Assembly (NCBI GenBank): GCA_031367285.1 | Contig: JANLPN010000392.1 | Coordinates: forward strand, 197-64,196 | Length of the DNA: 64,000 bases | Direction of reading: 5' to 3' | From: Betaproteobacteria bacterium | Lineage (GTDB): Bacteria; Pseudomonadota; Gammaproteobacteria; Burkholderiales; Burkholderiaceae_C | Shown here: one piece after another, positions 1 through 48,493 of the stretch | Position numbering within the stretch: the stretch's first letter is position 1 | Layout: each line of letters starts with the position of its first letter | The notes under the pieces: model-generated | Databases searched by the model: none | Told to the model about the DNA's origin: nothing | Seen by the model: the letters and a program-made list of their open reading frames with translations, nothing else | Made by a program: the position numbers and the translations under genes

Positions 1-1394
1 TCCGGACGCAAGCGGAACTTCTGCGCATCGCGTTTGCTGTAACCGATTTTGTCCAGGATGTCGTTGGCCTGCTTGGGGTCGAACTGGGTGAACTGGCGCG
101 CCAGTTTTTCGTTGTACCAGGGGTGGCCGGGCCGAGGGCCGGTCTGGTAGGGCTCGGACTGCCCGAGGTACACCAGGTCGATGATCTCCTTGCGGTTCAT
201 GCCCAGCGAGAGCGCCTGGCGGAACTGCTTGTTGGCGAACATCTCGCGCATCTTCGGATCCTTGTGCGTCATGTTCAGGTAGATCTGCACCTGTTGCGCG
301 CCAGCGTTCACAAGCTCGATCAGGCGGTAACCGCCCTTTTGCATGTTCTGCGACAGCGTGGGTTTGTTCTGCAGCGAATCGATATGCCGTTCCTGGATGT
401 CAAGTTTGCCCGACAGGGCGTCCAGCATCAGCGATTCCACGTCCTGTGCAATGCTGAAGTTGAGGCGGTCGATATAGGGCAGCTGTTGCCCGCTCTGGTC
501 CACCTGCCAGAAGTACGCATTGCGTTCCATTACCACGCGCGTGACGCCGCCGGAATAGGCCTCGGTCACGACCCACGGGTCCAACGTCGGTTTTTCGACG
601 TTGCCCCAGCGCGCCGGGATCTCGATGTCGCCCATCTTGCCGCGGAAATACGCGGCCCAGTCGGTCATGTTTGCGGCCTTGGCCTGCGCCGCCACGTTCT
701 GGTTGTACTTGGGATGGAACTGGCTGCCGTAATGTTTGGGAAAAAGGGTCGGGTACTGGCCCAGTGGTGTCGCAAGCTGCTCCAGGAATAGCGCGTACGG
801 GCTGGCGAAGGTGAATTTGACGGTGGTGTCATTGACCTTGGTGACCACGGCGGGTTTGTTGGCGATCACCAGCGTGGACGGCACGGACTTGTACAACTCG
901 GCATTCTTGGCGCAGTCTTCGATCGAGAAAACAATATCGTCGGCTGTAAAAGGTTTGCCATCCGACCACTTCATGCCGGGGCGCAGCGTGAACGTGAACT
1001 CGGTCGAGTTGGCGTTCACCTCCCATTTGGAGGCCACACACGGCAGTACTTCGGTAAACGCCAGGTTCCAGCGCACCAGGCCCTGGTTACCCACCATACG
1101 CAGGATGCCGTTGTGGTCGGCGCTGCCGCGCAGGCCGCGGCGCAAGGCACCCCCGTAGGTGCCGACCTTTTCCGCCTGTATCACCAGCGGGACCGAAGGC
1201 AGGCGTTGCGCCAACGCCGGTAATTTGCCGTCGCTCACCATCTTGGCCAGAGCCGGGGCCTCTTTGGCTTGCTGTGCCAGGGCGTTGCCAGCCATGCCGG
1301 CCAGGGCAGCGGCGCCCGCAAAACCCTTGAGCACCGTGCGGCGCTTGGCGCTGGCCGGAGGCAGGAAGTTGGATGGTGGCTTAGATGTGGACAT
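1..1394 (-). CDS. ABC transporter substrate-binding protein, family 5 (peptide/nickel type), Tat signal; 3' end runs off window
   Basis: Own translation from ATG at 1394 (AGGAG upstream): MSTSKPPSNF...KRRTVLKG (twin-Arg)...GTYGG...TFTLRPGMKWSDGKPFTADD (family 5 motif). Absent from the ORF track because no stop lies in the window. Confidence 0.88.
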   Translation of the reverse strand, partial: MSTSKPPSNFLPPASAKRRTVLKGFAGAAALAGMAGNALAQQAKEAPALAKMVSDGKLPALAQRLPSVPLVIQAEKVGTYGGALRRGLRGSADHNGILRMVGNQGLVRWNLAFTEVLPCVASKWEVNANSTEFTFTLRPGMKWSDGKPFTADDIVFSIEDCAKNAELYKSVPSTLVIANKPAVVTKVNDTTVKFTFASPYALFLEQLATPLGQYPTLFPKHYGSQFHPKYNQNVAAQAKAANMTDWAAYFRGKMGDIEIPARWGNVEKPTLDPWVVTEAYSGGVTRVVMERNAYFWQVDQSGQQLPYIDRLNFSIAQDVESLMLDALSGKLDIQERHIDSLQNKPTLSQNMQKGGYRLIELVNAGAQQVQIYLNMTHKDPKMREMFANKQFRQALSLGMNRKEIIDLVYLGQSEPYQTGPRPGHPWYNEKLARQFTQFDPKQANDILDKIGYSKRDAQKFRLRP

Positions 1395-1428
1395 GAACGG
1401 ACTCCTGAGGGATATTCTTGGCACTACT

Positions 1429-1566
1429 TTGTCAGACAAATTTTGGGCTGTCAAGCAAGGTTAAACCCTGATAGGGTTGAATTCCGGCCGTTAGCCTAGG
1501 TAATTTCCCTCATATGGAGCGGTTCGTGCGGATTATTTGTCTTACATCCACTAATGTGTCATACAA
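1429..1566. promoter_or_regulatory. Three FadR/GntR-type operator-like sites in a divergent promoter region
   Basis: TTGTCAGACAA 1429-1439 (within perfect TTTGTC-A-GACAAA), TTGTCTTACAT 1537-1547 and GTGTCATACAA 1556-1566 fit the FadR-subfamily TKGT-N-ACMA style. A FadR gene lies at 2565. Confidence 0.6.
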
Positions 1567-1587: not shown

Positions 1588-2544
1588 ATGGCCATACCCT
1601 TCGAACCACCCGCCTGCCCCGCCATGAATACTTCCCCGCTGCAGCTTGAAGAGTTCTCGGCGTCGGTGCTGGCCGTGCCGCCCTTGGCGCGGCACCCCGA
1701 CCTGTCGCTGGACGTGGCGCAGAACCGCAAGTTGATCCGCCATATCGAGGCCGGTGGTCACCGGACCTTGCTCTACGGTGGCAATGCCAACCTGTACCAC
1801 TGCTCGGTGCAGGACTTTGCGCAGCTGCTCGACCTGCTGGCGGAGAACACAGCCCCCGCCACCCGGGTGATCCCGGCCATTGGCCCGGACTTCGGCAAGA
1901 TGATGGACCAGGCGCGCCTGTTGCGCGGAACCGGCTACCGTACCGCCATGGTGTTGCCCATGCTGGGTTTCACCACCCCCGAAGGCGTGGCTGACGGCAT
2001 ATCCCGGTTCGTGGATTTCGCCGGTATTCCGGTCACGCTGTATCTCAAGAACGAGCACAGCATCACCATCGAAGCTCTCGGGCGGCTGGTGGACGCTGGC
2101 CACATCGTCGCTGTCAAATACGCGGTGGTGCGCGACGACCCGGTCCAGGACCCCTACCTGAGCGCACTGGTGCAACGTATCGGTGCCGCGCGCATCGTGA
2201 GTGGCATGGGCGAGCGCCCGGCCGTGGTGCATCTGGCGCACTTCGGCCTGGCGTCTTTCACCACCGGCTCCGGGTGTATCGCACCCAGGGCGGCCATGCA
2301 GTTGTTGGGTGCGCTCAAGCGCCGCGACGTCGTGGCGGCAGAAACCATCCACGCCCGTTTCATGCCCATGGAAGACCTGCGCGAGGCGATCTCGCTGATC
2401 CGCGTACTGCACGATGCCGTCACCCTGTCGGGCATTGCCGACATGGGGCCGCATCTGCCCCTGCTCAGTGCCTCGCCGGCCGACCGGTTTGCCGAGATCA
2501 AGGCCCGGGCCGACGATTTGCTGTCCCTGGACCGGGACTTTTGA
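1588..2544 (+). CDS. Dihydrodipicolinate synthase (DapA)-family lyase/dehydratase, substrate unknown
   Basis: TIM-barrel pattern with LYGGNAN, Tyr in VTLYLK and Schiff-base Lys in VAVKYAV. Alternative start ATG 1624. Confidence 0.8.
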   Translation: MAIPFEPPACPAMNTSPLQLEEFSASVLAVPPLARHPDLSLDVAQNRKLIRHIEAGGHRTLLYGGNANLYHCSVQDFAQLLDLLAENTAPATRVIPAIGPDFGKMMDQARLLRGTGYRTAMVLPMLGFTTPEGVADGISRFVDFAGIPVTLYLKNEHSITIEALGRLVDAGHIVAVKYAVVRDDPVQDPYLSALVQRIGAARIVSGMGERPAVVHLAHFGLASFTTGSGCIAPRAAMQLLGALKRRDVVAAETIHARFMPMEDLREAISLIRVLHDAVTLSGIADMGPHLPLLSASPADRFAEIKARADDLLSLDRDF

Positions 2545-2564
2545 CACATGGTCCGGGTACCGCG

Positions 2565-3254
2565 ATGAACACCAGCCTGGGCACCGGTCTGGTGGATCGC
2601 GTCTATCGCGAAATCCTGGGCTCCATCATGGACGGGGAGTTCAACGAAGGCGACAAACTGCCGACCGAGCTCGCGCTCACCGAACGTTTCACCGCCTCGC
2701 GTCCGACCATACGCGAAGCCCTGTCGCGCCTGCGTGCCGACGGCATCACCAGCACGCGCCAGGGTTCGGGCACCTTCGTCAAGCGCCGGCCCGACCCCGA
2801 TCTGCCGCGCTTCACACCGCTGGAAACCATCTCCGACGTGCAGCGCTGTTTCGACTTTCGCATCGTGGTCGAATCGGGTGCCGCGGCTCTGGCCGCCAGC
2901 ATGGCCAGCGATGGCGACCTGCAGGAGATCGAGCAGCGCTTCTCCCAACTCGATACCGTCATCGCCGAGCAGGCCCTGGGGTCCACCGAAGACTTCGACT
3001 TTCACCTGGCGGTCGCGCGTGCCTCGCGCAACCAGTTTTTTGTATCGGCCATTGCGTCGATGCAGGAGCAGGTGCTGGTGAGCATGACACTCATGCGCAG
3101 CCTCTCCCTGCTCAAAAGCGTCGAGCGCCAGAAGCTGGTGCAGGCTGAACACGAGGTAATTCTGGCGGCCCTGAAAAGGCGCGATGCCGAAGCGGCCGGC
3201 CAGGCGATGCGCCTGCATCTGGAAAACGCCCGCAACCGGATGTTCGGCAAGTAA
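2565..3254 (+). CDS. GntR-family (FadR subfamily) transcriptional regulator
   Basis: wHTH GDKLPTELALTERFTASRPTIREAL...RQGSGTFV plus FCD domain (DFDFHLAVARASRN, EHEVILAALKRRD). ATG at 2565. Confidence 0.93.
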   Translation: MNTSLGTGLVDRVYREILGSIMDGEFNEGDKLPTELALTERFTASRPTIREALSRLRADGITSTRQGSGTFVKRRPDPDLPRFTPLETISDVQRCFDFRIVVESGAAALAASMASDGDLQEIEQRFSQLDTVIAEQALGSTEDFDFHLAVARASRNQFFVSAIASMQEQVLVSMTLMRSLSLLKSVERQKLVQAEHEVILAALKRRDAEAAGQAMRLHLENARNRMFGK

Positions 3255-4453: not shown

Positions 4454-5392
4454 ATGCCACTCGCTCCGGAGATCAGCAGCCTGCTGGTGGCGGTCAATGC
4501 CCAGCCGCCCATGCACCAGGTGCCCATCGCGCAATTGCGCAGGACGCGCGAGCGTATTGGAGCCACGGACTTCCAGCCGGTAGGCAAAGTCGTCGATCAG
4601 ACGATTGCGGGTCCTGCAGGGTCGATTCCGCTGCGCCTCTACGCGCCCGAGGGCGATTTGAGGGAACTTCCGCTCGTCATTTTTTTCCATGGCGGTGGCT
4701 TTGTTTTTGGCAGCGTGGACGGTTATTACGACCACGTCTGCCGGGTCTTCTGCGCGCAGGTGCGATGCCGCGTCATCTCGGTTGCCTACCGGCTCGCTCC
4801 GGACGACAAGTTTCCAGCCGCAACCGACGATTGTTATGCCGCGCTGCAATGGGCGGTTGCGCACGGGAATGACCTCGGCATTGACACGGGGAAGGTGTTC
4901 CTGGCCGGGGGCAGCGCCGGCGCCAATCTGGCGGCGGTGACCGCGCTGCGCGCACGCGACGCAGGCGGACCGGTTTTGCGTGGGCAGGTTCTGTTCTATC
5001 CGGTCGCCGATTACCATACGCCGCCAACCGCATCGTCGCTGGATTTCTCCGAGGGCTATTACCTGACGCGTGCCGACGTTGTATGGTTCTGGGAGCAGTA
5101 CTTGCGCGACGCGGCCGATGCGGACAACTCCTACGCCGTGCCCATGCGCGCTACAACGCTGGCCAAATTGCCACCCGCGCTGGTCATCACCGCTGAATAC
5201 GACCCATTGCGGGATGAGGGCGAACACTACGCCCGGCGTCTGGTCGAACACGGCGTCCAGGTAACGCTCACCCGCTACCCCGGCATGGTGCACGGCTTCC
5301 TGGCTTTTCCGACCGACCAGGCGTCCGCGGCCTTGCAGGAAGCCGTGGTGTGGATCAAGTCTTTGGCGGGAGCAGCGACTGCATCGAGCTAG
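4454..5392 (+). CDS. Alpha/beta hydrolase, HSL-family esterase
   Basis: HGGGF oxyanion motif, YRLAP, GGSAG nucleophile elbow, EYDPLRDEG, HGF. Confidence 0.92.
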   Translation: MPLAPEISSLLVAVNAQPPMHQVPIAQLRRTRERIGATDFQPVGKVVDQTIAGPAGSIPLRLYAPEGDLRELPLVIFFHGGGFVFGSVDGYYDHVCRVFCAQVRCRVISVAYRLAPDDKFPAATDDCYAALQWAVAHGNDLGIDTGKVFLAGGSAGANLAAVTALRARDAGGPVLRGQVLFYPVADYHTPPTASSLDFSEGYYLTRADVVWFWEQYLRDAADADNSYAVPMRATTLAKLPPALVITAEYDPLRDEGEHYARRLVEHGVQVTLTRYPGMVHGFLAFPTDQASAALQEAVVWIKSLAGAATASS

Positions 5393-5486
5393 GTTTCGGG
5401 CGCATCCCGTTGGTGCGGCGCCATTGCGTCCAGGCTGGCACAAACGCGCAGGTACTTGATGCCGGTGATAGTAGGCATGGAGTGTG

Positions 5487-5514
5487 AGGGTTAACCCTTA
5501 TTTACTGACCAGTA
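5487..5514. promoter_or_regulatory. AGGGTTAACCCT palindrome plus TACT-N4-AGTA operator core
   Basis: AGGGTTAACCCT 5487-5498 and TACTGACCAGTA 5503-5514 in an AT-rich intergenic region upstream of the 5.6-15.1 kb operon. Confidence 0.55.
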
Positions 5515-5604
5515 GTTAATAAATACCATACGGCATATCTGCAATCTTGTTAGTAAATTGTGGCATGTGCAAGCCGGAGTCTTCCCGGCCCCGGCCCCTG
5601 GCGA

Positions 5605-6085
5605 ATCGTCAACGAAGGGAAAACTTCCGTGGTCACCATTCCCAAATCTCCCTACACCCAACCCGAGATGTTCCAGGCGGACGTGATGGAGCTGGACAAC
5701 AAGTGGTACTCGCTTGGCAAGATGGGCATGGTGCGCCCGCTGACGTGGAACAGCGCCGTCATCTTGCCGGCGGCCGCGTGGGCTGGAACATCGTCTCTGG
5801 CTTCAGCCAGGCCGAGCAACTGGCCAGCGGCCTGGGCACCCAGACGCCCCATGAAGAGCGTTACGACCAGGCCGAGCGTCGCGGGCATGAAGAAAAGCAT
5901 GGACCAACTGCGCACCGCGGCCGACCTGCATGGCCACAAGGAAGAGCTCAAGGTGCTGTTGGGCCTGCAACCCATCATCCGTAGTACCGAGGCTGAGGCA
6001 CGCCAGCGCGCCGAAGAACTGGCGGAGCGGATTCCGTACCGCCTACGAAGGCGAGAGTTTCCGCGCCAACCTGATGGCCGGCTGA
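5605..6085 (+). pseudogene. Collapsed remnant of an NtaA/SnaA/DmoA-type LLM monooxygenase, preceded by an unidentified coding fragment
   Basis: Family fragments occur in three reading frames: HLAGGRVGWNIVSG...HEERYDQAE; KEELKVLLGLQPIIRSTEAEARQRAEEL; FRTAYEGESFRANLMAG* (TGA 6083-6085). About 330 bp remain of a gene normally about 1.3 kb. Confidence 0.75.
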
Positions 6086-6098
6086 AGGTCACGCCACC

Positions 6099-7190
6099 AT
6101 GAATACCGCTTTGGCCGAACCGGAACCAACCACCATCGACCCGATGGAGCTGCGCCGCTGCCTGGGCTCCTTCGTCACCGGCGTCACCGTCATCACCGCG
6201 CTGTCCGAGGACGGTACGCCGATAGGCATGACGGCCAACTCGTTCAACTCGGTGTCGCTCGACCCGCCGCTGATCGTCTGGAGCCTGCGCATGAATGCGC
6301 GCGCCTTTGCGGTCTACAGCCAGGCCAAGCGGTTTGTCGTCAACATCCTGTCCGAGGAGCAGGTCGATGTCTCGAACCGTTTCGCCAAGTCGGGGCCAAA
6401 CCGTTTCGATGGTGTTGCCGTCACGGCCGGTATCGAAGGCGTGCCGCTGATCGACGGATGTTCGGCGCACCTGGAGTGCCGCACCGAGACGGTCTATCCG
6501 GGTGGCGACCACCTGCTGTTCCTGGGCCGCGTCGAGCGCATCGTGGGCAGCGCGCGCAAGCCATTGGCCTTTGGCGCCGGCAAGTACATGGTGGTGCACC
6601 CTTACGACAATTCGGCCAACGCGGATTTCGGCTCGGGCAATGTGGCAAGCCTGAACGCGGTACACCTGGCCCGTCCGGTGCTGGAAGAGCTGAACCGCGA
6701 GACCGACAAGACGGTTGGACTGGGCGTCTGGGGCAACCTCGGGCCTACGCTGATCTGGTGGATAGAGGCGCGCAAACCGCTTGAAAACCGCCTGCGTTGC
6801 GGCATGGTCATCCCGCTGCTGGGTTCCTCCACTGGCAAGGTGTTCGCCGCCTTTTCATCGCCCCAGTTGACCGAGCGTTACTTGCAGGCCGAAATCGCCG
6901 CCATGCGGCACCTCAAGGACGCGCCGTTCACCACCCGTGAAGCGGTGGAAGAACATCTGGTGCAGGTACGCGAAGAGCGCCTGGCGTCGATCCACAACGC
7001 CATCTTGGCCGACGTCAATGAACGCGGTGTGAGCGCCGTCAGCGCGCCGGTGTTTGACGCGGGCGGCGCCATCGTGCTGGCGCTCACCATGATGGGCAAC
7101 GCCGACGAGTTCGACGAACACAACCCGGCCGTCGAGCACCTGCGTGAAGCCGCGAGAAAGTTGTCCGCGCGCCTGGGGTACAAGTCATGA
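6099..7190 (+). CDS. Flavin reductase domain fused to an IclR-type effector-binding domain (no HTH)
   Basis: N-half LRRCLGSFVTGVTVIT, TANSFNSVSLDPPL, GGDHLLFLGRV. C-half ETDKTVGLGVW, PLLGSSTGKVFAAF, VSAVSAPVFDAGG. Confidence 0.85.
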   Translation: MNTALAEPEPTTIDPMELRRCLGSFVTGVTVITALSEDGTPIGMTANSFNSVSLDPPLIVWSLRMNARAFAVYSQAKRFVVNILSEEQVDVSNRFAKSGPNRFDGVAVTAGIEGVPLIDGCSAHLECRTETVYPGGDHLLFLGRVERIVGSARKPLAFGAGKYMVVHPYDNSANADFGSGNVASLNAVHLARPVLEELNRETDKTVGLGVWGNLGPTLIWWIEARKPLENRLRCGMVIPLLGSSTGKVFAAFSSPQLTERYLQAEIAAMRHLKDAPFTTREAVEEHLVQVREERLASIHNAILADVNERGVSAVSAPVFDAGGAIVLALTMMGNADEFDEHNPAVEHLREAARKLSARLGYKS

Positions 7191-8077
7191 GCGGGATGGC
7201 CACCCACAACGCTTGGGGCCGCTGGGGCGCCGAGGACGAGCGCGGCGCGGTCAACACCATCGGCCCCGACCAGGTGCGCCGGGCCACGGCCCTGGTACGC
7301 ACCGGCGAGGTGCTGCGGCTGGCGCAACTGTTGTCCGACAAGACGCCGGTGCCGGCGCACCGTTGCGGTCTGCAACATTTCATGGGCCGGGACGGCGGCG
7401 ACTACGCCATCGCCGGCAGCAAACGCCCAGGTGGTTTCCAGTTTGCCGAAGACTCGGTGGTGATGCCGCTGCACATTGGCACCCATGTGGACGCCTTGTG
7501 CCACGCCTGGTACGACGACAAACTCTACAACGGCTACCTGGGCGACACGATACGCAGCACTACCGGCGCGGGGCGGCTCGGGGTCGAGAAAATGCCGCCG
7601 GTCGTGACGCGCGGCGTCTTGCTGGATTTTGTGCGGCTCAAGGGGCGTGTGCTGGCCGACGGTGAATCCATTGGTGTGGCCGACCTGGAAGCCGCGGCGG
7701 CGGCGGCCGGTGTACAGATTGAGAAGGGCGACGCGGTGTTGCTGCGTACCGGCTGGCTGGAAGCGCAAAAGGGTGTGAAACACCCGTCCTTCAACGAGGA
7801 ACCCGGCATCGACGTGGACGCGGCCCTGTGGCTGGCCGAGCGCTCGGTAGCCATGGTGGGCGCCGACAACTTTGCCATCGAGGTCCTGCCGTTTGCCCCG
7901 GGCAAGGTGTTTCCGGTGCACCAGTTGCTGATCCGCGACTACGGTGTGCCGCTGCTCGAAGGGCTGATGCTCGACCCCCTGGTGGCCAGCGGCCGCCATG
8001 AGTTCCTGTTTGTGGCCAGCCCCTTGCCCATTGTCGGCGCCACCGGCAGCCCGCTGGCGCCGGTAGCCGTACTTTGA
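7187..8077 (+). CDS. Cyclase-family (KynB/isatin hydrolase-like) metal-dependent amidohydrolase
   Basis: HxGTHxD metal motif (HIGTHVD), GDAVLLRTGW, GADN, LLEGL. ATGA-coupled to the upstream gene. Confidence 0.88.
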   Translation: MSGMATHNAWGRWGAEDERGAVNTIGPDQVRRATALVRTGEVLRLAQLLSDKTPVPAHRCGLQHFMGRDGGDYAIAGSKRPGGFQFAEDSVVMPLHIGTHVDALCHAWYDDKLYNGYLGDTIRSTTGAGRLGVEKMPPVVTRGVLLDFVRLKGRVLADGESIGVADLEAAAAAAGVQIEKGDAVLLRTGWLEAQKGVKHPSFNEEPGIDVDAALWLAERSVAMVGADNFAIEVLPFAPGKVFPVHQLLIRDYGVPLLEGLMLDPLVASGRHEFLFVASPLPIVGATGSPLAPVAVL

Positions 8078-8082
8078 AAACC

Positions 8083-9288
8083 ATGAAAAAACAAAGGCCG
8101 CTTGAGGGCATTCGTATCCTGGAGATCGCCTCGATGATTTTCGGCCCGGTGGCTGGGCAGTACCTGGGCGACATGGGCGCCGACGTGATCAAGCTTGAGC
8201 CGCCCGAAGGCGATTTGACGCGTTCGATAGGCCCGCGCCGGTCGCCGCGCATGGGCGCGTTTTTCCTGACCAGCAACCGCAGCAAACGCAGCATCGTGGT
8301 GGACCTGAAACGCCCCGAGGGTCGCGAAATACTGCAGCGCCTGGTCGCCAGGACCGACGTATTGCTGCATTCCATGCGCACGCCCGCCGCCAACCGGCTC
8401 GGGCTGGGGTATGAAACGCTGGTCAAGAGCAATCCGGCCCTGGTCTACTGCCATGTGACCGGTTATGGCGACGAGGGTCCCTACGGCGGCCGGCCCGCCT
8501 ACGACGACATCATCCAGGCCGCTTCGGGCCTGGCCATGATGCAGAAGGTGGTGGGCGGCGAGCCGCGTTTCGTGCCTACCATCATCGCCGACAAGATCAG
8601 CGGTGTACACGCGGCCTACGCCATCGTGCTGGCATTGATGCACCGCATGCGTACCGGAGAGGGGCAGCAGGTCGATGTGGCCATGTTCGAAACCATGGCG
8701 GCGTTCAATATGATGGAACACCAGTGGGGCCACGCTTTTGAGCCGCCGCTGGGCCCCATGGGTTATGCGCCGGTGATCTCGGCGGCCCGGCGACCCTACC
8801 GTACACAAGACGGGTACCTGGCGCTGCTGCCGTATTCGGATACGCACTGGCGGCGCTTTTTCGAGCTGGCCGGTGAGCCGCAAATCATGCAGGACGAGCG
8901 CTTCGCGACCTTTGCCGCGCGCCAGAAACATTTTCGCGCGGTGTGGGACGAGATCGAGCGCCAGGTCGCGCGCAAGACCAATGCCGAATGGTTGCGCCTG
9001 CTGACACCCGAGGACATTCCGTTCTCCCCGGTCAACGACATGCAAGACCTGCCCAACGACCCGCACCTCAAGGCGGTGAACTTCTGGAGTGTTGCCGAAC
9101 ACCCCACCGAAGGCAAGCTGCTGATCCCGGCCAACCCGCTGCGCATGAGCGCGTCGCCGCCCGAGGTAACCCGCTTGCCGCCCACACTGGGCCAGCACAG
9201 CGCCGAGATTCTGCGCGAATACGACTATGACGAGACCGACGTGGCACGGATGACCGCTGCGGGCGGAACCTGCGCTGCCGACATTTGA
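8083..9288 (+). CDS. Class III CoA-transferase (CaiB/BaiF family)
   Basis: PLEGIRILE, LGDMGADVIKLEPPEGD, NRSKRS, IADKISG (catalytic Asp), PPTLGQHS. Alternative TTG start 8074. Confidence 0.93.
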   Translation: MKKQRPLEGIRILEIASMIFGPVAGQYLGDMGADVIKLEPPEGDLTRSIGPRRSPRMGAFFLTSNRSKRSIVVDLKRPEGREILQRLVARTDVLLHSMRTPAANRLGLGYETLVKSNPALVYCHVTGYGDEGPYGGRPAYDDIIQAASGLAMMQKVVGGEPRFVPTIIADKISGVHAAYAIVLALMHRMRTGEGQQVDVAMFETMAAFNMMEHQWGHAFEPPLGPMGYAPVISAARRPYRTQDGYLALLPYSDTHWRRFFELAGEPQIMQDERFATFAARQKHFRAVWDEIERQVARKTNAEWLRLLTPEDIPFSPVNDMQDLPNDPHLKAVNFWSVAEHPTEGKLLIPANPLRMSASPPEVTRLPPTLGQHSAEILREYDYDETDVARMTAAGGTCAADI

Positions 9289-9301
9289 CCTGGCCCGTAC
9301 C

Positions 9302-10462
9302 ATGATTCCACGCACTATCTTCAGCTCTGACCACGATGCGTTTCGCGACAGCGTACGCCGCTTCATCACCGAGCATGTGACGCCCCACCACGCCGACTGG
9401 GAGAAGGCCGGCCAGGTGCCGCGCGAGCTCTGGACCAAGGCCGGTGAACTGGGCCTGCTGTGCTGCAACGTGCCCGAGCAATACGGCGGCATGGGCGGCG
9501 ACTTCCTGTACAGCACCCTGCTGATCGAGGAGATGGCGCGTGCGGGGGCCACCGGGCCGACCTTCTACCTGCATTCGGACATCTGCGCGCCCTACCTGGT
9601 GGACTTTGGCACCGAGGAGCAAAAACAGAAGTGGCTGCCCAAAATGGCCACCGGCGAAGTGGTGGCGGCGCTTGGCATGAGCGAGCCGTCGGGTGGCAGC
9701 GACGTGCAGGCCATGCGCACGCAGGCCATCCGCGACGGCGACGAATACGTCATTGACGGCCAGAAAGTGTTCATCACCAATGGCCACAGCGCCGACCTGC
9801 TCATACTGGCCTGCAAGACCGACCCCAAGGCGCGCGGCAAGGGCGTGAGCCTGATCCTGGTCGAGACCAACCGGCCCGGCTTCACACGTGGCCGCAAGCT
9901 GGAGAAGCTGGGTTGCAAGGCGCAGGACACGTCCGAGCTTTTCTTTGCCGACCTGCGGGTTCCGGTGGGCAACCTGCTAGGCCATGAAGGCGGCGGCTTC
10001 GCCATGCTGATGACGCAGCTGTCGCAGGAACGCCTGGTGCAGGCGATTCGTGGGGTGGCCAGCTCCGAAGCGGCGCTGCAGTGGACGATTGCCTATGTGA
10101 GCGAACGCAAGATGTTCGGCCAGACACTGGGCGACTTCCAGAACACGCGCTTCAAGCTGGCCGAGCTGCACGCCGAAGTGCTGGCCCAACGCGTGTTCGT
10201 GGACCGCTGCATCGAGCTGCACCTGGCGGGCAAGTTCGATGCCACCGACGCCGCAGCGGCCAAACTTGTCACCACCGAGCTGCAGGGCCGCGTGATGGAC
10301 CAGTGCCTGCAGTTCTTCGGCGGCTGGGGTTATATGTGGGAATACCCGATTGCCCGCGCCTTTGCCGATGCGCGCATGTGCCGCCTGGGCGGCGGCACGG
10401 CCGAGGTGATGCGGCAAATCATCGGCAACTCGTTATTGCCCAAGGTGCGCAAGGCGGCATGA
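9302..10462 (+). CDS. Acyl-CoA dehydrogenase (LCAD/IVD-type catalytic Glu position)
   Basis: MSEPSGGSD, GQKVFITNG, KLGCKAQDT, SQERL, FGGWGYMWEYPIAR, GGGTAEVM. Confidence 0.95.
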   Translation: MIPRTIFSSDHDAFRDSVRRFITEHVTPHHADWEKAGQVPRELWTKAGELGLLCCNVPEQYGGMGGDFLYSTLLIEEMARAGATGPTFYLHSDICAPYLVDFGTEEQKQKWLPKMATGEVVAALGMSEPSGGSDVQAMRTQAIRDGDEYVIDGQKVFITNGHSADLLILACKTDPKARGKGVSLILVETNRPGFTRGRKLEKLGCKAQDTSELFFADLRVPVGNLLGHEGGGFAMLMTQLSQERLVQAIRGVASSEAALQWTIAYVSERKMFGQTLGDFQNTRFKLAELHAEVLAQRVFVDRCIELHLAGKFDATDAAAAKLVTTELQGRVMDQCLQFFGGWGYMWEYPIARAFADARMCRLGGGTAEVMRQIIGNSLLPKVRKAA

Positions 10463-10474
10463 ACATGTCCGCCA

Positions 10475-11161
10475 TTGGCCACGGGATTCAAGGGAACAAG
10501 CGCCGTGCATGACGATATGCGCCTGGCAGTGCAAAGCTTGAAGCGCGAGCGTATCGTGGCGGTGGCGGTGGACCTGTTTTACCTGCAGGGTTTTGGCCAG
10601 ACCACTCTGGACCAGGTGGCCGAGCAGATGGGCATGACCAAGCCCTTTATCTACGTTCATTTCCACTCCAAGGGCGAGTTGCTGGCAGCCATCTGCGCCC
10701 AGGGCATCCGGGTCTCGCTGGGTGCGATCGACCGTGCGTTGGCATCGGGCGGATCGGCGCGCCAGCGGCTCACCGCATTTGCGCACGGCTTCACGCTGGC
10801 GGTGCTGGAGAGCCAGAAACATGTGGCGATCTATACCCGCGAAGAAAAAAACCTGGCGCCGGCCGACTGCGATGCGATCCAGCGCATGCGGCGTGAATTC
10901 GACCGCAAGCTGACCGGCCTGCTGGACCAGGGCGTTGCCAGCGGGGAGTTCCAGATCAGCGAGCCGCCGCTGGCGGCGCTGGCCATCGGTGGTATCGCGA
11001 GCTGGGCCTGCGTCTGGTTCAGACCCGGCGGTCGCCTGGCCGCCAGCGAAATTGCACAACACATGGCGGCCTTGATGCTGGCCATGGTCAAGGCCGACAG
11101 AAGCGGCCAACCGGCCGGCATGGCCGATCAAGTTTTACGACCCGAGGAGACAACTTCATGA
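10475..11161 (+). CDS. TetR-family regulator with KstR2/PaaR-like C-terminal domain; start uncertain
   Basis: HTH GFGQTTLDQVAEQMGMTKPFIYVHFHSK; C-term GVASGEF...AIGGIASW..VWFRPGGRL. Alternative start ATG 10517. Confidence 0.88.
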   Translation: MATGFKGTSAVHDDMRLAVQSLKRERIVAVAVDLFYLQGFGQTTLDQVAEQMGMTKPFIYVHFHSKGELLAAICAQGIRVSLGAIDRALASGGSARQRLTAFAHGFTLAVLESQKHVAIYTREEKNLAPADCDAIQRMRREFDRKLTGLLDQGVASGEFQISEPPLAALAIGGIASWACVWFRPGGRLAASEIAQHMAALMLAMVKADRSGQPAGMADQVLRPEETTS

Positions 11162-12141
11162 TTACCCGCCGCAAAATAGTTCAGGCCGCAGTGGCAACCA
11201 GCGTCGCGCATTGGCTGACGCCGACACACGCACAGACCACCAATTGGCCCGAACAAGCGGTCAAGATAGTGGTGCCGTTCACGGCCGGGGGCGCCTCCGA
11301 CGTGTTGACGCGTATGCTGGCCGAAAAGCTGCAGGGCCGGCTGGGCCAGAACTTCGTGGTGGACAACCGCACCGGTGCGGGCGGCAATATCGGCATGGAG
11401 GCGGTCAAGAACGCACCGGCCGACGGCTACACGATTTCCTCCTCGACCATCGGCACCTTGTCGATCAACCAGTTCCTGTTCGCCAAGCTCGGCTACGACC
11501 CGGTGGCCGACTTCGCCTACGTGTCGATGATCTGGGAAAACTGCAATGTGTTCGTGGTTGCGTCCCAGCATCCCGCCAAGACGGTGCAGGAGTTCCTGGT
11601 CTGGGCGCGCAAGCAGCCCAAGGGCGTGACCTTCGGTTCCGCCGGCGTGGGAACCACGCCGCACCTGGCGGGCGAGCTGTTTCGTGCCCGCACCGGCATC
11701 ACGGCACTGCACATACCGTACCGCGGTGCCGCGCAGTCGATGCCTGCCCTGATGGCCGGCGACACCGATTTCGCGATTGATAACATCGCAAGCTACCTGC
11801 CCCTGATCAAGAGCGGCAAGGTGCGTGCGCTGGCGGTTACGGCGGGGGCACGCTGGCCCACGCTGATGGAGGTGCCAACCATGGCGGAGGCGGGCGTGCG
11901 CGACTTCATCATCACGTCCTGGGGCGCTTTTGTGGTACCCAAGGGCACCCCGGTCGCGATCATCAACAAATTGTCGGGCGCGGTGCAGGCCATTGCCGCC
12001 GAACCGGCCATGCAGCAGCGTTTTCTGGAGAGCGGCGCACGGGCGGTCGCGTCCACGCCGGCCGAGACGGCGGCGTTTGCCGAACGCGAACGGGTGAAGT
12101 GGAAAGAAGTGGTGCAGATCTCCGGCGCCAAGATGGACTAA
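11158..12141 (+). CDS. Bug/TctC-family substrate-binding protein, Tat-like signal
   Basis: TRRKIV twin-Arg; PFTAGGASD, DNRTGAGGNIG, PYRG motifs. Confidence 0.93.
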   Translation: MITRRKIVQAAVATSVAHWLTPTHAQTTNWPEQAVKIVVPFTAGGASDVLTRMLAEKLQGRLGQNFVVDNRTGAGGNIGMEAVKNAPADGYTISSSTIGTLSINQFLFAKLGYDPVADFAYVSMIWENCNVFVVASQHPAKTVQEFLVWARKQPKGVTFGSAGVGTTPHLAGELFRARTGITALHIPYRGAAQSMPALMAGDTDFAIDNIASYLPLIKSGKVRALAVTAGARWPTLMEVPTMAEAGVRDFIITSWGAFVVPKGTPVAIINKLSGAVQAIAAEPAMQQRFLESGARAVASTPAETAAFAERERVKWKEVVQISGAKMD

Positions 12142-13451
12142 TGCAAAGCTCAAAACCAACGCCACGCCGCGTGGCCGTCATCGGTGCCGGTGCCGGCGGC
12201 CTGTGCGCCGCCAAATACCTGCTGGCACGCGGGGTCGAAGTGGTGGTGTACGAGCTGGGCTCCCACGTCGGCGGCTTGTGGGTTTACCAGAACGACAGCG
12301 GCCTCGGGCCCGCCTACCAGTCGCTGCACCTCAACTCGGAGGCGCGCGTCACGGCCTACAAGGACTTCCCGTTTCCCGAAGGCGGCCCGCTGTATCCGGA
12401 CCACGTCCAGGTGCATGCTTACCTGAAAGCGTATGCCGAACGCTTCGACCTGCTGCGCCACATCCGCTTTCGCGCGCGGGTGGTCAACCTGGTCCCGCAG
12501 GGCGGCAAGTGGCAAGTCCAGTTGGGTGACGGTAGCAGCGCGGACTTCGACGCCGTGGTGGTGGCCAGCGGGCACCAGGGCGTGCCAACCCATCCGGAAT
12601 GGAAGGACCAGTTCACGGGTGAATACCTGCATTCGCACAGCTACCGGGTGCCGGAGCCGTTTCGCGGCAAACGGGTGCTGGTGGTGGGCATGGGCAACAG
12701 CGCGGTGGACATTGCCTCCGACATCTGCGTCGTGGCCCAATCCACCACCATCGTGGCGCGTTCACCGGTGCTGGTGATGCCGCGTATGTTGTTCGGCGTG
12801 CCGACCTCGCGGGTACTGGGCAAGCTGGAAAAAAGCTGGATGCCGTGGCCGGTGCGGCGCACCGTCCGCGAGATCCTGACGTCCATCGTGCATGGCCGCA
12901 TGGAGCAATGGGGCTTTACCACGCCCAAGAGCCGCACCCACCCGACCAGCCATCCGAACCTGATGTCGCACTTTGTCTGGGACCGTATCAAGGCCAAACC
13001 GGCCATCACGTCGGTCCAGGGCAACCAGGTGCAGTTCGTGGACGGCAGCCAGGGCAGCTACGACGTGGTGATTGCCGGCACCGGGTATGCCGTGGACCTG
13101 CCGTTTCTGGCGCCTGAGCTGCGCCCGCTGGACGGGCACCGGATCGAGCTGTTCCTGAGGGTGGTGCATCCGCGCCAGAGAGGCCTGTATTTCACCGGCA
13201 TGTTCAATGTGGCCGGCGGCGGCAACATCCGCATGATGGACGACCAGGCCGAATGGATCAGCGAGCTGGTGTGTGGCGACAAGGCCTTGCCCGATGAGGC
13301 GCGGATGCGCCGCGTGATGGAGGAGGAGCAGGCCTTCCTGCGCAACCACTACCCCGGCAGCGCACGGTATGCACTGGAGCTCGACCCCACGTTCTACCGC
13401 CGGCAGCTGGCGCGCGAGCGCCGGCGTGGCGCTGTCGGGCAGCCGGCCTGA
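12141..13451 (+). CDS. Flavin-containing monooxygenase (FMO, class B)
   Basis: GAGAGG, GGLW, FMO fingerprint FTGEYLHSHSY, second Rossmann GMGNSA. TAATG overlap with upstream stop. Confidence 0.9.
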   Translation: MQSSKPTPRRVAVIGAGAGGLCAAKYLLARGVEVVVYELGSHVGGLWVYQNDSGLGPAYQSLHLNSEARVTAYKDFPFPEGGPLYPDHVQVHAYLKAYAERFDLLRHIRFRARVVNLVPQGGKWQVQLGDGSSADFDAVVVASGHQGVPTHPEWKDQFTGEYLHSHSYRVPEPFRGKRVLVVGMGNSAVDIASDICVVAQSTTIVARSPVLVMPRMLFGVPTSRVLGKLEKSWMPWPVRRTVREILTSIVHGRMEQWGFTTPKSRTHPTSHPNLMSHFVWDRIKAKPAITSVQGNQVQFVDGSQGSYDVVIAGTGYAVDLPFLAPELRPLDGHRIELFLRVVHPRQRGLYFTGMFNVAGGGNIRMMDDQAEWISELVCGDKALPDEARMRRVMEEEQAFLRNHYPGSARYALELDPTFYRRQLARERRRGAVGQPA

Positions 13452-13526
13452 AACAGGCGTAACCCGAGGAGACAACATGGACATCGAGCCCCTTACCCAA
13501 GTTATCCAGGTCACCCAGGAGGCCCC

Positions 13527-14681
13527 ATGACACTGCGTGACAAAGCCTGTATGACAGGCATAGGCGAAACCGCGTACGTGCGCGGCTCGACCAGGACCGC
13601 GTTCGAACTGCAGATCGAGTCATCGCTGAAGGCGATAAACGACGCCGGGCTGACACCGAAGGACATTGACGGCATCATCCCGATCGGCATCGTGAGCGGC
13701 ACCGCCGACGACTTTATCGACAACTTCGGCCTGCCCGACCTGCGCTTTTCGGCCGTGGTGCCGCATGGCGGCGCAAGCCCGGCGATGGCGCTGCAATGCG
13801 CCGCCGCGGCGGTGGCATCGGGCGCCTGCAACCATGTGCTGATCACCTTCGGGCGCAACGTGAGCGCGGCGTCCAACAAGGCCGGCGCGCGTATCCACGG
13901 CATGCCGCAGTTCCACTACGTGACCGAGTTCGAACACCCCATGGGCGCCAGTGCACCTGCGCAGCTGTACGCACCGATGGCACGCCGCCACATGGAGCTG
14001 TATGGCACCACGGTGGAGCAGTTTGGCGAAGTGGCCGTGGCCTGCCGCCAGCACGCCTTGCTAAACGGCAACGCCATCATGAAGAAGCCCATCACGCTGG
14101 CGGATCACCGCAATTCGCGCATGATCGCCGACCCGTTCCGCCTGCTCGACTGCAGCCTGGAGAGCGACGGCGGCGCGGCGGTCATCGTGAGTTCCGCCGA
14201 GCGGGCCGCCGACCTGCGGCACCGGCGGGTCTATATCTCGGGGGTTGCCGAAGGCCACCCCGACCAGCCGGGCGCCATCACCCAGCGCCCTGACATGACC
14301 AGCCTGGGGATAGCCAAGGCGGCGCCGCGCGCCTTCCGGATGGCCGGTGTGACACACGCCGACATCGATGTGGCCGAGATCTACGACTGCTTCACCTACG
14401 CGGTGATCCGCCAGCTTGAAGACATGGGTTTCTGCGCCAAGGGCGAAGGCGGGCCGTTTGTGCAGGGTGGGCGCCTGCGGCTGGGCGGCGCGCTGCCGAC
14501 CAACACCCACGGCGGCCTGTTGTCGCAGGCCCATGTGTGGGGCTTGAACCATATCGTTGAACTGGTAAGGCAGCTGCGCGGCGACGCGGGAGCGGCCCAG
14601 GTGGCGAATGCCGAAATCGGTCTGGTCACCGGTTATGGCGACCTGGGCGACGGTGCCCTGGCCATCATGCGAAGGGGGTAA
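13527..14681 (+). CDS. SCP2/Ltp2-like thiolase-fold protein lacking the canonical nucleophilic Cys
   Basis: DPFRLLDCSLESDGGAAVIV, EIYDCFT, NTHGGLLSQAH. The Cys position reads HGGASP. Confidence 0.85.
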   Translation: MTLRDKACMTGIGETAYVRGSTRTAFELQIESSLKAINDAGLTPKDIDGIIPIGIVSGTADDFIDNFGLPDLRFSAVVPHGGASPAMALQCAAAAVASGACNHVLITFGRNVSAASNKAGARIHGMPQFHYVTEFEHPMGASAPAQLYAPMARRHMELYGTTVEQFGEVAVACRQHALLNGNAIMKKPITLADHRNSRMIADPFRLLDCSLESDGGAAVIVSSAERAADLRHRRVYISGVAEGHPDQPGAITQRPDMTSLGIAKAAPRAFRMAGVTHADIDVAEIYDCFTYAVIRQLEDMGFCAKGEGGPFVQGGRLRLGGALPTNTHGGLLSQAHVWGLNHIVELVRQLRGDAGAAQVANAEIGLVTGYGDLGDGALAIMRRG

Positions 14682-39318: not shown

Positions 39319-39371
39319 CCATCCGGCCACAGTCCATCCTTGGCGATGGGCCGCCCACCCTGGAGACACCC

Positions 39372-45989: not shown

Positions 45990-45998
45990 ACTGAAACC

Positions 45999-47657: not shown

Positions 47658-48493
47658 CCGCGGCGCCAGGAGATTCCACGACCCAGGGCGGCCAGCGCTT
47701 CACGGGGCGGATTGCCGTCATAACCGGGGGTGCCAGCGGCATCGGCAAGTCGTGTGCGGAGGTCCTTGCGGCGCAGGGTGCCCTGGTGGTTATCGCCGAC
47801 CTGGACCTCGTGGGAGCGACCCGCGTGGCCGATGGGCTTGCCGGCCGTGCGTACGCCATCGACCTGGGCCATGCACCGGATATCGACGTATTCGCCCGGC
47901 GCGTGGAACGCGAGGTCGGTCCGGTGGACATGCTGGTCAACGCGGCCGGCATCATCCAGGGCGCGGCATTGCCTCCGCAGGAGCTGGCGCTCGAAACCTA
48001 TGACCGCGTGTTCGCCGTCAACCTGCGCGGCACCTATGCCGCTTGCGCCGCCTTCGGCCGGCATATGGCCGCGCGCCATCGTGGCGCCATCCTCAATATT
48101 GCATCCATCGCCGGCATGCGCTCGACACCCCTGCATGCCTACGGCCCCATGAAAGCAGCGGTGATCCAGCTGACGGAAAACCTGGCCACCGAATGGGGGC
48201 GCAGCGGCGTGCGCGTGAACTGCCTGTCACCGGGCCCGGTGCTCACCCCCGCGCTGCAGGACGCCATAAGCAAAGGCCAGCGCGACCGAGAGCGCATGGA
48301 AAACAGCATGGCCAGCGGTCAGCTCGTGATGCCGCGGGAAGTGGCCATGGCCGCTGCGTTTTTGTTATCGGACGAAGCGTCCGCCATCACCGGCGTCAAC
48401 CTTCCGGTGGACCACGGCTGGCTGGTCGCCAGCCCCTGGGCTTCATTCGGCGGCGTGCGGCCGCGTTTACCAACCAGCAAGGAACTTTCATGA
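47654..48493 (+). CDS. SDR-family oxidoreductase
   Basis: TGGASGIG, NAAG, YGPMK, NCLSPG, VDHG. Confidence 0.9.
   Translation: MTAAPGDSTTQGGQRFTGRIAVITGGASGIGKSCAEVLAAQGALVVIADLDLVGATRVADGLAGRAYAIDLGHAPDIDVFARRVEREVGPVDMLVNAAGIIQGAALPPQELALETYDRVFAVNLRGTYAACAAFGRHMAARHRGAILNIASIAGMRSTPLHAYGPMKAAVIQLTENLATEWGRSGVRVNCLSPGPVLTPALQDAISKGQRDRERMENSMASGQLVMPREVAMAAAFLLSDEASAITGVNLPVDHGWLVASPWASFGGVRPRLPTSKELS

What the first reader, a model, noticed from the sequence alone, without database searches (positions are those of the whole stretch)
6099..7190. Flavin reductase fused to an IclR ligand-binding domain without a DNA-binding domain
Seen: an intact HpaC-like reductase followed by a complete IclR effector domain, with no HTH and no internal stop. 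It sits directly after a decayed two-component LLM monooxygenase, and another LLM enzyme lacking a reductase lies at 48490. Inference: an effector-gated reductase that supplies reduced flavin only when substrate is present and so limits uncoupled peroxide formation.
Basis: partly seen in the sequence, partly recalled or inferred. Interest (0 to 1): 0.6.

Follow-up and report, generated by a model that had tools for sequence, protein, structure and literature searches.

The report
Flavin reductase fused to IclR sensor
This intact gene joins an enzyme that makes reduced flavin to the ligand-sensing half of an IclR-type regulator; the fusion is a conserved, unstudied family that probably supplies flavin only when a metabolite is bound, but here its partner oxygenase gene has decayed.

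Summary
ORF 6099-7190 (+) encodes 363 aa: an HpaC-like flavin reductase domain (residues 23-164), a 17-residue linker and a complete IclR_C effector domain (182-356). There is no HTH and no stop.

It is not a local accident. More than 120 protein clusters, down to 36% identity, share the architecture. In 31 of 34 informative Burkholderiales loci it directly follows a cupin gene and an NtaA/DmoA-type luciferase-like monooxygenase (LLM). The operon order is cupin-LLM-fusion-cyclase-CoA transferase-acyl-CoA dehydrogenase-TetR-TctC.

In this window the cupin and LLM are reduced to a roughly 450-bp mosaic remnant (5634-6078). The fusion is therefore an orphan, though it keeps every conserved residue.

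The reductase domain's closest solved relative is C1 of Acinetobacter baumannii p-hydroxyphenylacetate hydroxylase. C1 carries a MarR-like C-terminal domain that inhibits the enzyme until substrate binds. The likeliest reading is the same principle with a different sensor fold. Ligand gating is inferred, not shown.

I found no paper on this architecture. Earlier agents of this scan noted similar reductase-sensor fusions (IclR, LysR, FCD and MarR types) in other genomes.

Verdict: a new variant of a known kind, of moderate interest.

The parts
6099..7190 (+). Fusion gene, 363 aa: flavin reductase plus IclR_C effector domain, no HTH
   Evidence: ORF and translation. Pfam domains. More than 120 homologous clusters share both domains. 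It keeps all 98 columns that are >=85% conserved in the family alignment.
6165..6590 (+). HpaC-like flavin reductase domain (residues 23-164), with SxxPP motif (S53-P57), GDH motif (G136-H138) and invariant R19
   Evidence: Pfam PF01613, E 6.8e-38. Best PDB match by sequence is 5zc2, C1 reductase, E 4.3e-43. Invariant columns are listed. The motif definition is in PMC11795597. AF2 model and Foldseek matches to 3rh7, 5zc2 and 5zyr.
6591..6641 (+). Inter-domain linker (residues 165-181), variable in sequence and predicted disordered
   Evidence: pLDDT is below 50 for residues 169-180 and pTM is 0.55. These columns are variable in alignment A1.
6642..7166 (+). IclR_C effector-binding domain (residues 182-356), complete
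   Evidence: Pfam PF01614 covers positions 4-173 of 174, E 7.2e-21. PDB 5y6i (P. aeruginosa HmgR), E 1.4e-20 by sequence and Foldseek E 2.6e-15. Median dN/dS 0.156.
5634..6078 (+). Mosaic remnant of the cupin_7 gene and the NtaA/DmoA-family LLM gene: five fragments, one inverted, in at least two frames
   Evidence: blastn against intact loci L010, L002, L039 and L018. tblastn shows fragments in different frames. Intact homologues are P0129 (Cupin_7) and P0130 (TIGR03860, 421 bits). No intact orthologue was found elsewhere in the genome.
5493..5549 (.). Conserved upstream control region with an inverted repeat (5499-5525), a probable operator and promoter of the ancestral operon
   Evidence: 79% identical to L010 upstream DNA. 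Inverted repeat. Conserved palindrome TACTCATGAGTA in relatives (alignment A3). The consensus sigma-70 scan found no promoter.
7187..8077 (+). Cyclase/arylformamidase-like hydrolase (PF04199); its start overlaps the fusion's stop
   Evidence: Syntenic in nearly all loci that extend past the fusion; exceptions are L020 and L035.
8074..9288 (+). Family III CoA-transferase
   Evidence: Pfam E 2.1e-115. Syntenic.
9302..10462 (+). Acyl-CoA dehydrogenase
   Evidence: Pfam N, M and C domains. Syntenic.
10475..11161 (+). TetR-family regulator, the DNA-binding regulator encoded within the operon
   Evidence: Pfam TetR_N plus TetR_C_24. Conserved in L010 and L002; in L031 only a more distant copy (57% identical) follows the thiolase gene.
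11158..12141 (+). TctC-type solute receptor
   Evidence: Pfam E 1.5e-64. Conserved.
12099..13451 (+). FMO-like single-component flavin monooxygenase
   Evidence: Pfam FMO-like, E 1.6e-58. Present in L002, L031 and L089.

Best explanation
The gene encodes the NADH:flavin reductase component of a two-component, LLM-type flavin monooxygenase system. The catalytic HpaC-like domain is permanently fused to an IclR-type small-molecule-binding domain that has lost its DNA-binding half. I propose it works like C1 of A. baumannii p-hydroxyphenylacetate hydroxylase. Without ligand, the C-terminal sensor domain restrains NADH binding or flavin reduction. When the pathway substrate or an early intermediate binds, the restraint is released, so reduced flavin is made only when the oxygenase can use it. 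This would save NADH and limit H2O2. Shown here: the architecture, its conservation, purifying selection on both domains, the catalytic motifs, the tight operon link to an NtaA/DmoA-type LLM in relatives, and a separate TetR regulator for transcription. Inferred: reductase activity, ligand binding by the IclR_C domain, and allosteric coupling. In this genome the cognate cupin and LLM genes have decayed, so the gene is an orphan. Either it feeds other flavin-dependent oxygenases by free diffusion of reduced flavin, or it is a recent relic that has not yet degraded.
For: 1. Both domains are intact with no HTH.
2. The family is conserved: more than 120 90%-identity clusters and about 24 50%-identity clusters align over the full length, at 36-86% identity.
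3. The HpaC-family motifs SxxPP and GDH, and R19 (which I equate with C1's NADH-contacting Arg20 by position; not checked by direct alignment to C1), are invariant (PMC11795597; PMC11618861).
4. The closest solved homologue is C1 (5zc2, E 4.3e-43), followed by 3rh7, a 321-aa two-domain protein whose C-terminal fold I did not examine.
5. All 10 of the nearest non-fusion relatives tested match the C1 profile NF045919 end to end.
6. C1's extra domain is a substrate-released autoinhibitor giving at least 30-fold stimulation (PMC10816480; PMC11618861).
7. Median dN/dS is 0.095 for the N domain and 0.156 for the C domain. The pair L027-L032, which both lack the LLM, still shows 0.12 and 0.16.
8. In 31 of 34 informative loci the fusion lies directly downstream of cupin plus NtaA/DmoA LLM. 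In five loci the tblastn coordinates imply that the LLM stop codon overlaps the fusion's start codon by one base.
9. More distant fusions also sit next to LLM genes (L083, L051).
10. The operon has its own TetR regulator.
11. A related cluster in G464 has a different LLM plus a short, unfused reductase at the same position. This shows the reductase's role there is to serve an LLM.
Against: No ligand is known and no binding pocket was analysed. AF2 places the two domains with low confidence relative to each other (pTM 0.55, disordered linker). IclR_C domains also mediate oligomerisation in regulators (general knowledge), so the domain might be only structural. The fusion persists under purifying selection in lineages that lack the LLM (L027, L032, L016 and this window), so LLM supply may not be its only role. 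One distant member (L084) has no LLM nearby. A genome of the same genus (G520) keeps cyclase-CoA transferase-ACAD without the fusion, so the fusion is dispensable for the downstream module.
Confidence: 0.55

Rival explanations
1. The IclR_C domain is a structural or oligomerisation module that forms tetramers or stabilises the reductase dimer. It does not gate catalysis through a ligand, and the reductase is constitutively active.
For: IclR C-terminal domains form the dimer and tetramer contacts of IclR regulators (general knowledge). No confident N-C domain contact was predicted. The related G464 cluster works with a short, domain-less reductase.
Against: Across 22-61 diverse members, the C domain keeps sequence blocks that I match from memory to the canonical IclR_C effector-domain motifs (around G235, S243, G246, R291 and P317-V318). 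It also has family-specific conserved residues (W211, N213, G215, P216, T217, W221). Its dN/dS is 0.156. The nearest reductase relatives are C1-type enzymes in which the extra domain is regulatory (PMC10816480).
Confidence: 0.2
2. In this particular genome the gene is a non-functional relic. Its cupin and LLM partners are destroyed, it now makes nothing useful, and it is on its way to loss, as has already happened in a genome of the same genus.
For: The cupin and LLM genes are reduced to a mosaic remnant. No orthologous LLM was found elsewhere in the genome. G520, same genus and 99% complete, has cyclase-CoA transferase-ACAD-TctC but neither the fusion nor an NtaA-like LLM.
Against: The ORF is intact and retains all 98 highly conserved columns. 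Its distance to the outgroup L023 matches that of LLM-bearing relatives: dN in the C domain is 0.195 against 0.185-0.196. Its stop overlaps the start of the downstream gene. The LLM-less pair L027-L032 still shows purifying selection. Reduced flavin from C1-type reductases diffuses freely to oxygenases (PMC10816480), so other LLMs in the genome (window ~48490; contig C387) could use it.
Confidence: 0.3
3. The protein is mainly a signalling or regulatory component and not a flavin supplier. For example, it could be an HTH-less IclR paralogue that forms mixed oligomers with full-length IclR regulators, or a flavin/NADH redox sensor.
For: Full-length IclR regulators 36-39% identical to the C domain exist in related genomes. 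The domain derives from a transcription-factor family.
Against: The catalytic motifs of the reductase domain are invariant. The operon position is that of a reductase component, immediately after the LLM gene. The operon's own regulator is TetR-type, not IclR-type. There is no precedent that I know of.
Confidence: 0.05

Closest known systems
C1 (AbHpaC), reductase component of p-hydroxyphenylacetate 3-hydroxylase, Acinetobacter baumannii (PDB 5zc2, 5zyr)
   Same: The N-terminal HpaC-like reductase domain is the best PDB match (E 4.3e-43, about 36% identity). Both are two-domain proteins whose C-terminal domain comes from a transcription-factor family, and in C1 that domain does not act as a DNA binder. 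Both serve a two-component flavin monooxygenase. In C1 the extra domain inhibits the enzyme until substrate binds (PMC10816480, PMC11618861).
   Different: C1's C-terminal domain is a helical MarR/NadR-like winged helix. Here it is an alpha/beta IclR_C effector domain. The NCBIfam C1 profile aligns only over positions 3-163 of 309 and scores 176 bits against a cutoff of 340. C1's partner oxygenase, C2, is not an LLM; from memory it has an acyl-CoA dehydrogenase fold. Here the partner is an LLM. The effector here is unknown.
NtaB, component B of nitrilotriacetate monooxygenase (Chelatobacter/Aminobacter)
   Same: It is a long-form reductase that partners an NtaA-family LLM, the same LLM family as the ancestral partner here (TIGR03860).
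   Different: According to the AlphaFold3 analysis in PMC11618861, NtaB's C-terminal domain is C1-like (MarR-type), not IclR_C. I did not compare the sequences directly.
IclR-family transcription regulators (e.g. P. aeruginosa HmgR, 5y6i; KdgR; the PcaR/PcaU/PobR subfamily)
   Same: The C-terminal domain is a full IclR_C effector domain. It matches 5y6i at E 1.4e-20 by sequence and Foldseek E 2.6e-15, TM 0.63 normalised to the target. It matches TIGR02431 over positions 70-246 of 248.
   Different: It has no N-terminal winged-helix DNA-binding domain. That position is occupied by an enzyme domain, so the protein cannot act as a classical IclR repressor or activator.
Short HpaC/PheA2/FerA/StyB-type flavin reductases
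   Same: They share the fold and motifs. A 187-aa short reductase 46% identical to the N domain sits at the equivalent position in the related G464 cluster.
   Different: They have no sensor domain.

Membership tests
HpaC-like (PF01613) short-chain flavin reductases | Pfam Flavin_Reduct score above the gathering threshold | tested here: met
   130.6 bits against a cutoff of 27, residues 23-164.
HpaC-like (PF01613) short-chain flavin reductases | Conserved (S/T/C)xxPP and GDH motifs (definition in PMC11795597) | tested here: met
   S53-L-D-P56-P57 and G136-D137-H138 are invariant in alignments A1 and A2.
HpaC-like (PF01613) short-chain flavin reductases | Beta-barrel flavin reductase fold | tested here: met
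   In the AF2 model the domain's pLDDT is mostly above 85. Foldseek gives E 1e-15 to 1e-20 against 3rh7, 5zc2, 3nfw, 4l82 and 4hx6.
HpaC-like (PF01613) short-chain flavin reductases | NAD(P)H-dependent reduction of free FMN or FAD | not testable with these tools
   Needs an enzyme assay.
C1-type effector-gated reductase (NCBIfam NF045919 equivalog) | Full-length match above the curated cutoff, including the MarR-like C-terminal domain | tested here: not met
   176.4 bits against a cutoff of 340. Only profile positions 3-163 of 309 align. No MarR Pfam hit.
C1-type effector-gated reductase (NCBIfam NF045919 equivalog) | Flavin reduction stimulated by the oxygenase's substrate through the C-terminal domain | not testable with these tools
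   Needs kinetics with and without ligand, and a truncation.
IclR-family transcription regulator | N-terminal winged-helix DNA-binding domain (HTH_IclR, PF09339) | tested here: not met
   No hit at E <= 0.01. Residues 1-170 are the reductase domain.
IclR-family transcription regulator | C-terminal effector-binding domain (IclR_C, PF01614) | tested here: met
   75 bits against a cutoff of 24, profile positions 4-173 of 174. Structural match to 5y6i.
NtaA/DmoA-family LLM (upstream remnant 5634-6078) | Intact ORF of about 436 aa matching TIGR03860 above its cutoff | tested here: not met
   Only fragments remain, scoring 22-36 bits against a cutoff of 279.7 and lying in two frames. The intact homologue P0130 scores 421 bits.

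The most novel reading that the evidence does not exclude
The IclR effector domain, so far known to me only as the ligand switch of DNA-binding regulators, has been recruited here as an allosteric switch on an enzyme. A whole Burkholderiales family of flavin reductases would then be turned on by the substrate of their partner LLM. Together with the MarR-, LysR- and FCD-type fusions noted elsewhere in this scan, it would show that bacteria repeatedly graft transcription-factor sensor domains onto flavin reductases to stop wasteful, peroxide-generating flavin reduction.
Probability: 0.5. Interest if true: 0.6.

Novelty: new variant of a known kind. Interest (0 to 1): 0.45.

Why it matters
Two-component flavin monooxygenases waste NADH and generate H2O2 if their reductase runs unchecked. 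The one well-studied remedy is the MarR-like brake of C1. This work points to a second, structurally unrelated sensor fold (IclR_C) fused to the same type of reductase. The fusion is conserved and under selection, and it sits beside an uncharacterised NtaA/DmoA-type LLM pathway in freshwater and soil Burkholderiales.

If the gating is confirmed, it would extend the principle of effector-controlled redox enzymes. It would give a ligand-switchable reductase for biocatalysis. The sensor's ligand should also be the substrate of the unknown pathway, which would help to identify that pathway.

The comparative series found here is a natural experiment on how such modules are gained, swapped and lost. 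It runs from the intact operon, to loss of the LLM, to loss of the reductase as well, and includes replacement by a BVMO or by a different LLM with a short reductase.

Tried and rejected
- **Domain docking.** Complex prediction with an N-domain dimer plus the C domain returned no verdict (score 0.00). It is not evidence either way.
- **Same sequence in other assemblies.** The look-up of encoding contigs with the window's exact protein found nothing on record. I therefore could not confirm the deletion mosaic in an independent assembly. Its patchwork structure and the independent LLM losses in L016, L027 and L032 argue against an assembly artefact.
- **Origin of the sensor domain.** The full-length IclR regulator in the related G464 cluster is only 24% identical to the fusion's C domain, no closer than generic paralogues. 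I rejected it as the direct source.
- **N-domain tree.** In a quick tree of 145 N domains the fusions lie together near some short forms and next to the large C1-like clade. Support is weak (14 of 142 branches starred), and fragments blur the classes. No claim of nesting or of a single origin is made.
- **Relaxed selection in the window's copy.** Pairwise omega in the C domain is higher against the close Rhodoferax loci (about 0.17-0.2, compared with 0.05-0.1 among them). Distances to the outgroup L023 are equal, so this reflects deeper branching and not acceleration.
- **Promoter and terminator scan.** The consensus scan of 5300-7300 found nothing.
- **Literature.** Searches for IclR plus flavin reductase found no paper on this architecture.
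- **Whether NtaB has the same architecture.** PMC11618861 describes its C-terminal domain as C1-like.

Full report
**1. Observation**

ORF 6099-7190 on the plus strand is open for 363 codons. Pfam finds two domains:
- Flavin_Reduct at residues 23-164 (E 6.8e-38).
- A complete IclR_C effector domain at residues 182-356, covering profile positions 4-173 of 174 (E 7.2e-21).

There is no HTH_IclR hit. Only 17 residues separate the two domains, so there is no room for a winged helix.

In NCBIfam the best model is the A. baumannii p-hydroxyphenylacetate hydroxylase reductase C1 (NF045919). Only its first 163 of 309 positions align. The C-terminal half instead matches IclR regulators (PcaR/PcaU, KdgR, BhcR) from about their position 70 onward, which is just after their DNA-binding domain.

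An AlphaFold2 model built on a 61-sequence family alignment gives two confident domains (mean pLDDT 86.7) joined by a disordered linker (residues 169-180). The overall pTM is 0.55, so the relative placement of the domains is not predicted. Foldseek matches the N domain to 3rh7 and to C1 (5zc2, 5zyr). It matches the C domain to the IclR regulator HmgR (5y6i).

**2. It is a family, not an accident**

A word-indexed search of 5.8 billion proteins returned more than 120 clusters that carry both Pfam domains, at 56-100% identity. An exhaustive HMMER search of 1.84 billion representatives found about 24 further 50%-identity clusters that align over the full length, at 36-55% identity.

The family is nonetheless uncommon in sampled genomes:
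- 3 of 401 Burkholderiales genomes sampled have a full-length member.
- Among 400 further genomes sampled across the phylum, the only match was one already found in the window's own family.

The 39 close genome loci found come from Rhodoferax, Comamonadaceae, Rubrivivax, Ramlibacter, Polaromonas and other Burkholderiales MAGs, and from Glaciimonas immobilis DSM 23240.

**3. Conserved context**

In relatives the gene order is:

cupin_7 (162 aa) - NtaA/DmoA-family LLM (436 aa, TIGR03860 at 421 bits) - fusion - cyclase/arylformamidase-like hydrolase - family III CoA-transferase - acyl-CoA dehydrogenase - TetR - TctC - (FMO-like) - thiolase-like

.

- Of 34 loci with enough upstream sequence to judge, 31 have the LLM directly upstream of the fusion. 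In five of them (L011, L013, L014, L015, L018) the tblastn coordinates imply that the LLM stop codon overlaps the fusion's start codon by one base.
- In Glaciimonas an ABC transporter is inserted between the LLM and the fusion.
- More distant fusion members also neighbour LLM genes: L083 has a divergently transcribed NtaA-like LLM and a LysR regulator, and L051 has another LLM.
- One distant member, L084, does not.
- The operon carries its own TetR regulator. A conserved palindrome lies upstream of the cupin gene. Transcriptional control therefore does not need the IclR-derived domain.

**4. State in this window**

The cupin and LLM genes are reduced to a collinear mosaic at 5634-6078:

| Window coordinates | Origin |
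|---|---|
| 5634-5742 | first ~36 codons of the cupin gene |
| ~5737-5776 | a 32-42 nt inverted piece of the cupin gene |
| 5770-5875 | LLM codons ~128-163 |
| 5878-6036 | LLM codons ~247-300 |
| 6034-6078 | last ~15 LLM codons |

The fragments lie in different frames. They are 72-87% identical to L010, which looks comparable to the intact flanking genes. I did not measure the flanking genes' identity directly, so a recent decay is only suggested.

No intact orthologue of this LLM was found elsewhere in the 5.59-Mb, 599-contig assembly.

The fusion gene itself is undamaged:
- It keeps all 98 columns that are at least 85% conserved in the family.
- It is no further from the outgroup L023 than LLM-bearing relatives are.
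- Its stop codon overlaps the start of the downstream hydrolase gene.

**5. Natural variants of the module**

- L016, L027 and L032 lack the cupin and LLM genes. In their place they have a divergently transcribed BVMO/FMO-like gene, and L016 and L027 also have an FMN-dependent dehydrogenase. All three keep fusion-cyclase-CoA transferase.
- L027 and L032 still show purifying selection on both domains (omega 0.12 and 0.16 at dS of about 0.47).
- G520 belongs to the same genus as the window and is 99% complete. It has FMN-dehydrogenase | cyclase-CoA transferase-ACAD-TctC, with neither the fusion nor an NtaA-like LLM anywhere in the genome.
- G464 has, upstream of the same downstream module, a full-length IclR regulator, a different LLM, a 187-aa short reductase (46% identical to the N domain) and an acyl-CoA ligase. 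Its IclR is only 24% identical to the fusion's C domain, so it is not the donor.

Together these variants show three things. The reductase belongs to an exchangeable oxygenation front end of the pathway. Its job there is to serve an LLM. The sensor domain is an optional addition and not a requirement for catalysis.

**6. Mechanism**

The N domain has the defining HpaC-family motifs, SxxPP at 53-57 and GDH at 136-138. It also has an invariant arginine, R19, which I equate by position with C1's NADH-contacting Arg20; I did not align the two sequences directly (PMC11795597; PMC11618861).

Its nearest solved relative is C1. All 10 of the nearest non-fusion relatives tested align end to end with the C1 profile, meaning they are long-form reductases with the MarR-like domain.

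What is established for C1:
- The C-terminal domain blocks the NADH site until p-hydroxyphenylacetate binds.
- Binding stimulates flavin reduction at least 30-fold.
- The reduced flavin then diffuses to the oxygenase.
- The stated benefit is to save NADH and avoid H2O2 (PMC10816480; PMC11618861).

The fusion family's C domain is under purifying selection (median omega 0.156, against 0.095 for the N domain). It keeps sequence blocks that I match, from memory, to the canonical IclR_C motifs, plus family-specific conserved residues W211, N213, G215, P216, T217 and W221.

I therefore consider ligand-gated reductase activity the most likely mechanism, with confidence of about 0.55. It remains an inference by analogy. 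No ligand, pocket or inter-domain contact was demonstrated.

**7. Comparison and novelty**

Effector-gated flavin reductases are known: C1, and probably NtaB and TesA1, all with MarR-type domains. The principle is therefore not new.

An IclR_C sensor on a flavin reductase was not found in the literature searched. Databases label these proteins only by automatic composite names.

Earlier notes of this scan report the same design in other genomes: IclR-type fusions in Actinobacteria (e1-2553740, e1-5479221) and LysR-, FCD- and MarR-type fusions. I did not test those notes.

I classify the finding as a new variant of a known kind, with moderate interest (0.45). In this window there is an added twist: the reductase has outlived its oxygenase.

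Noticed in passing
window 5499-5525; alignment A3 of upstream regions from L010, L039, L018, L002, L004, L007, L015: A conserved AT-rich element with the perfect palindrome TACTCATGAGTA lies upstream of the cupin gene in most aligned relatives (not L024 or L031). The window has a degenerate version (TTTACTGACCAGTAG, inverted repeat 5499-5525). It is probably the operator of the TetR regulator encoded in the operon.
   Followed up: partly
L089 (G464:C83) 5576-9798: A related cluster has a full-length IclR regulator, a different LLM, a short 187-aa flavin reductase and an AMP-binding ligase in front of the same cyclase-CoA transferase-ACAD-TctC-FMO-thiolase module. This is an unfused, non-orthologous version of the front end.
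   Followed up: partly
L016 4657-7645; L027 865-3853; L032 3494-6094: In three loci the cupin and LLM pair is replaced by a divergently transcribed BVMO/FMO-like monooxygenase. An FMN-dependent dehydrogenase accompanies it in L016 and L027, and a 3-hydroxyacyl-CoA dehydrogenase in L032. This may be non-orthologous replacement of the oxygenation step. L016 keeps a cupin remnant that overlaps the fusion's start.
   Followed up: partly
L088 (G520:C12) 8252-14101: A genome of the same genus has FMN-dehydrogenase | cyclase-CoA transferase-ACAD-TctC with no fusion and no NtaA-like LLM anywhere. This is the end state of the decay seen in the window.
   Followed up: yes
L035 8001-8756: The fusion homologue matches only residues 1-252 although 8 kb of contig follows, and no cyclase, CoA-transferase or ACAD follows it. 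This points to a truncation or rearrangement within the IclR_C domain in that Rhodoferax MAG (also seen as the 252-aa protein P0112).
   Followed up: no
L001 4620-5806; L006 947-2256: Apparent frameshifts split the CoA-transferase in L001 (residues 6-186 and 187-401) and the LLM in L006 (residues 1-43 and 44-436). They may be sequencing errors or early decay in those MAGs.
   Followed up: no
window 39351-40973, 45996-47624, 48043-49566: The window holds two BVMO-like genes, 56-67% identical to the L027 BVMO-like protein, and a further LLM of an unassigned subfamily (best NCBIfam hit MsnO8 family, 73 bits). No HpaC-type reductase lies nearby.
   Followed up: partly
window 3-1454 (-), 1588-2544 (+), 2274-3254 (+), 4454-5392 (+): Upstream neighbours are a family-5 solute-binding protein, a weak DHDPS-like ORF, a GntR/FCD regulator, and a hormone-sensitive-lipase-type esterase (LipP1 family, 354 bits against a cutoff of 350). 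The esterase sits just before the remnant.
   Followed up: no
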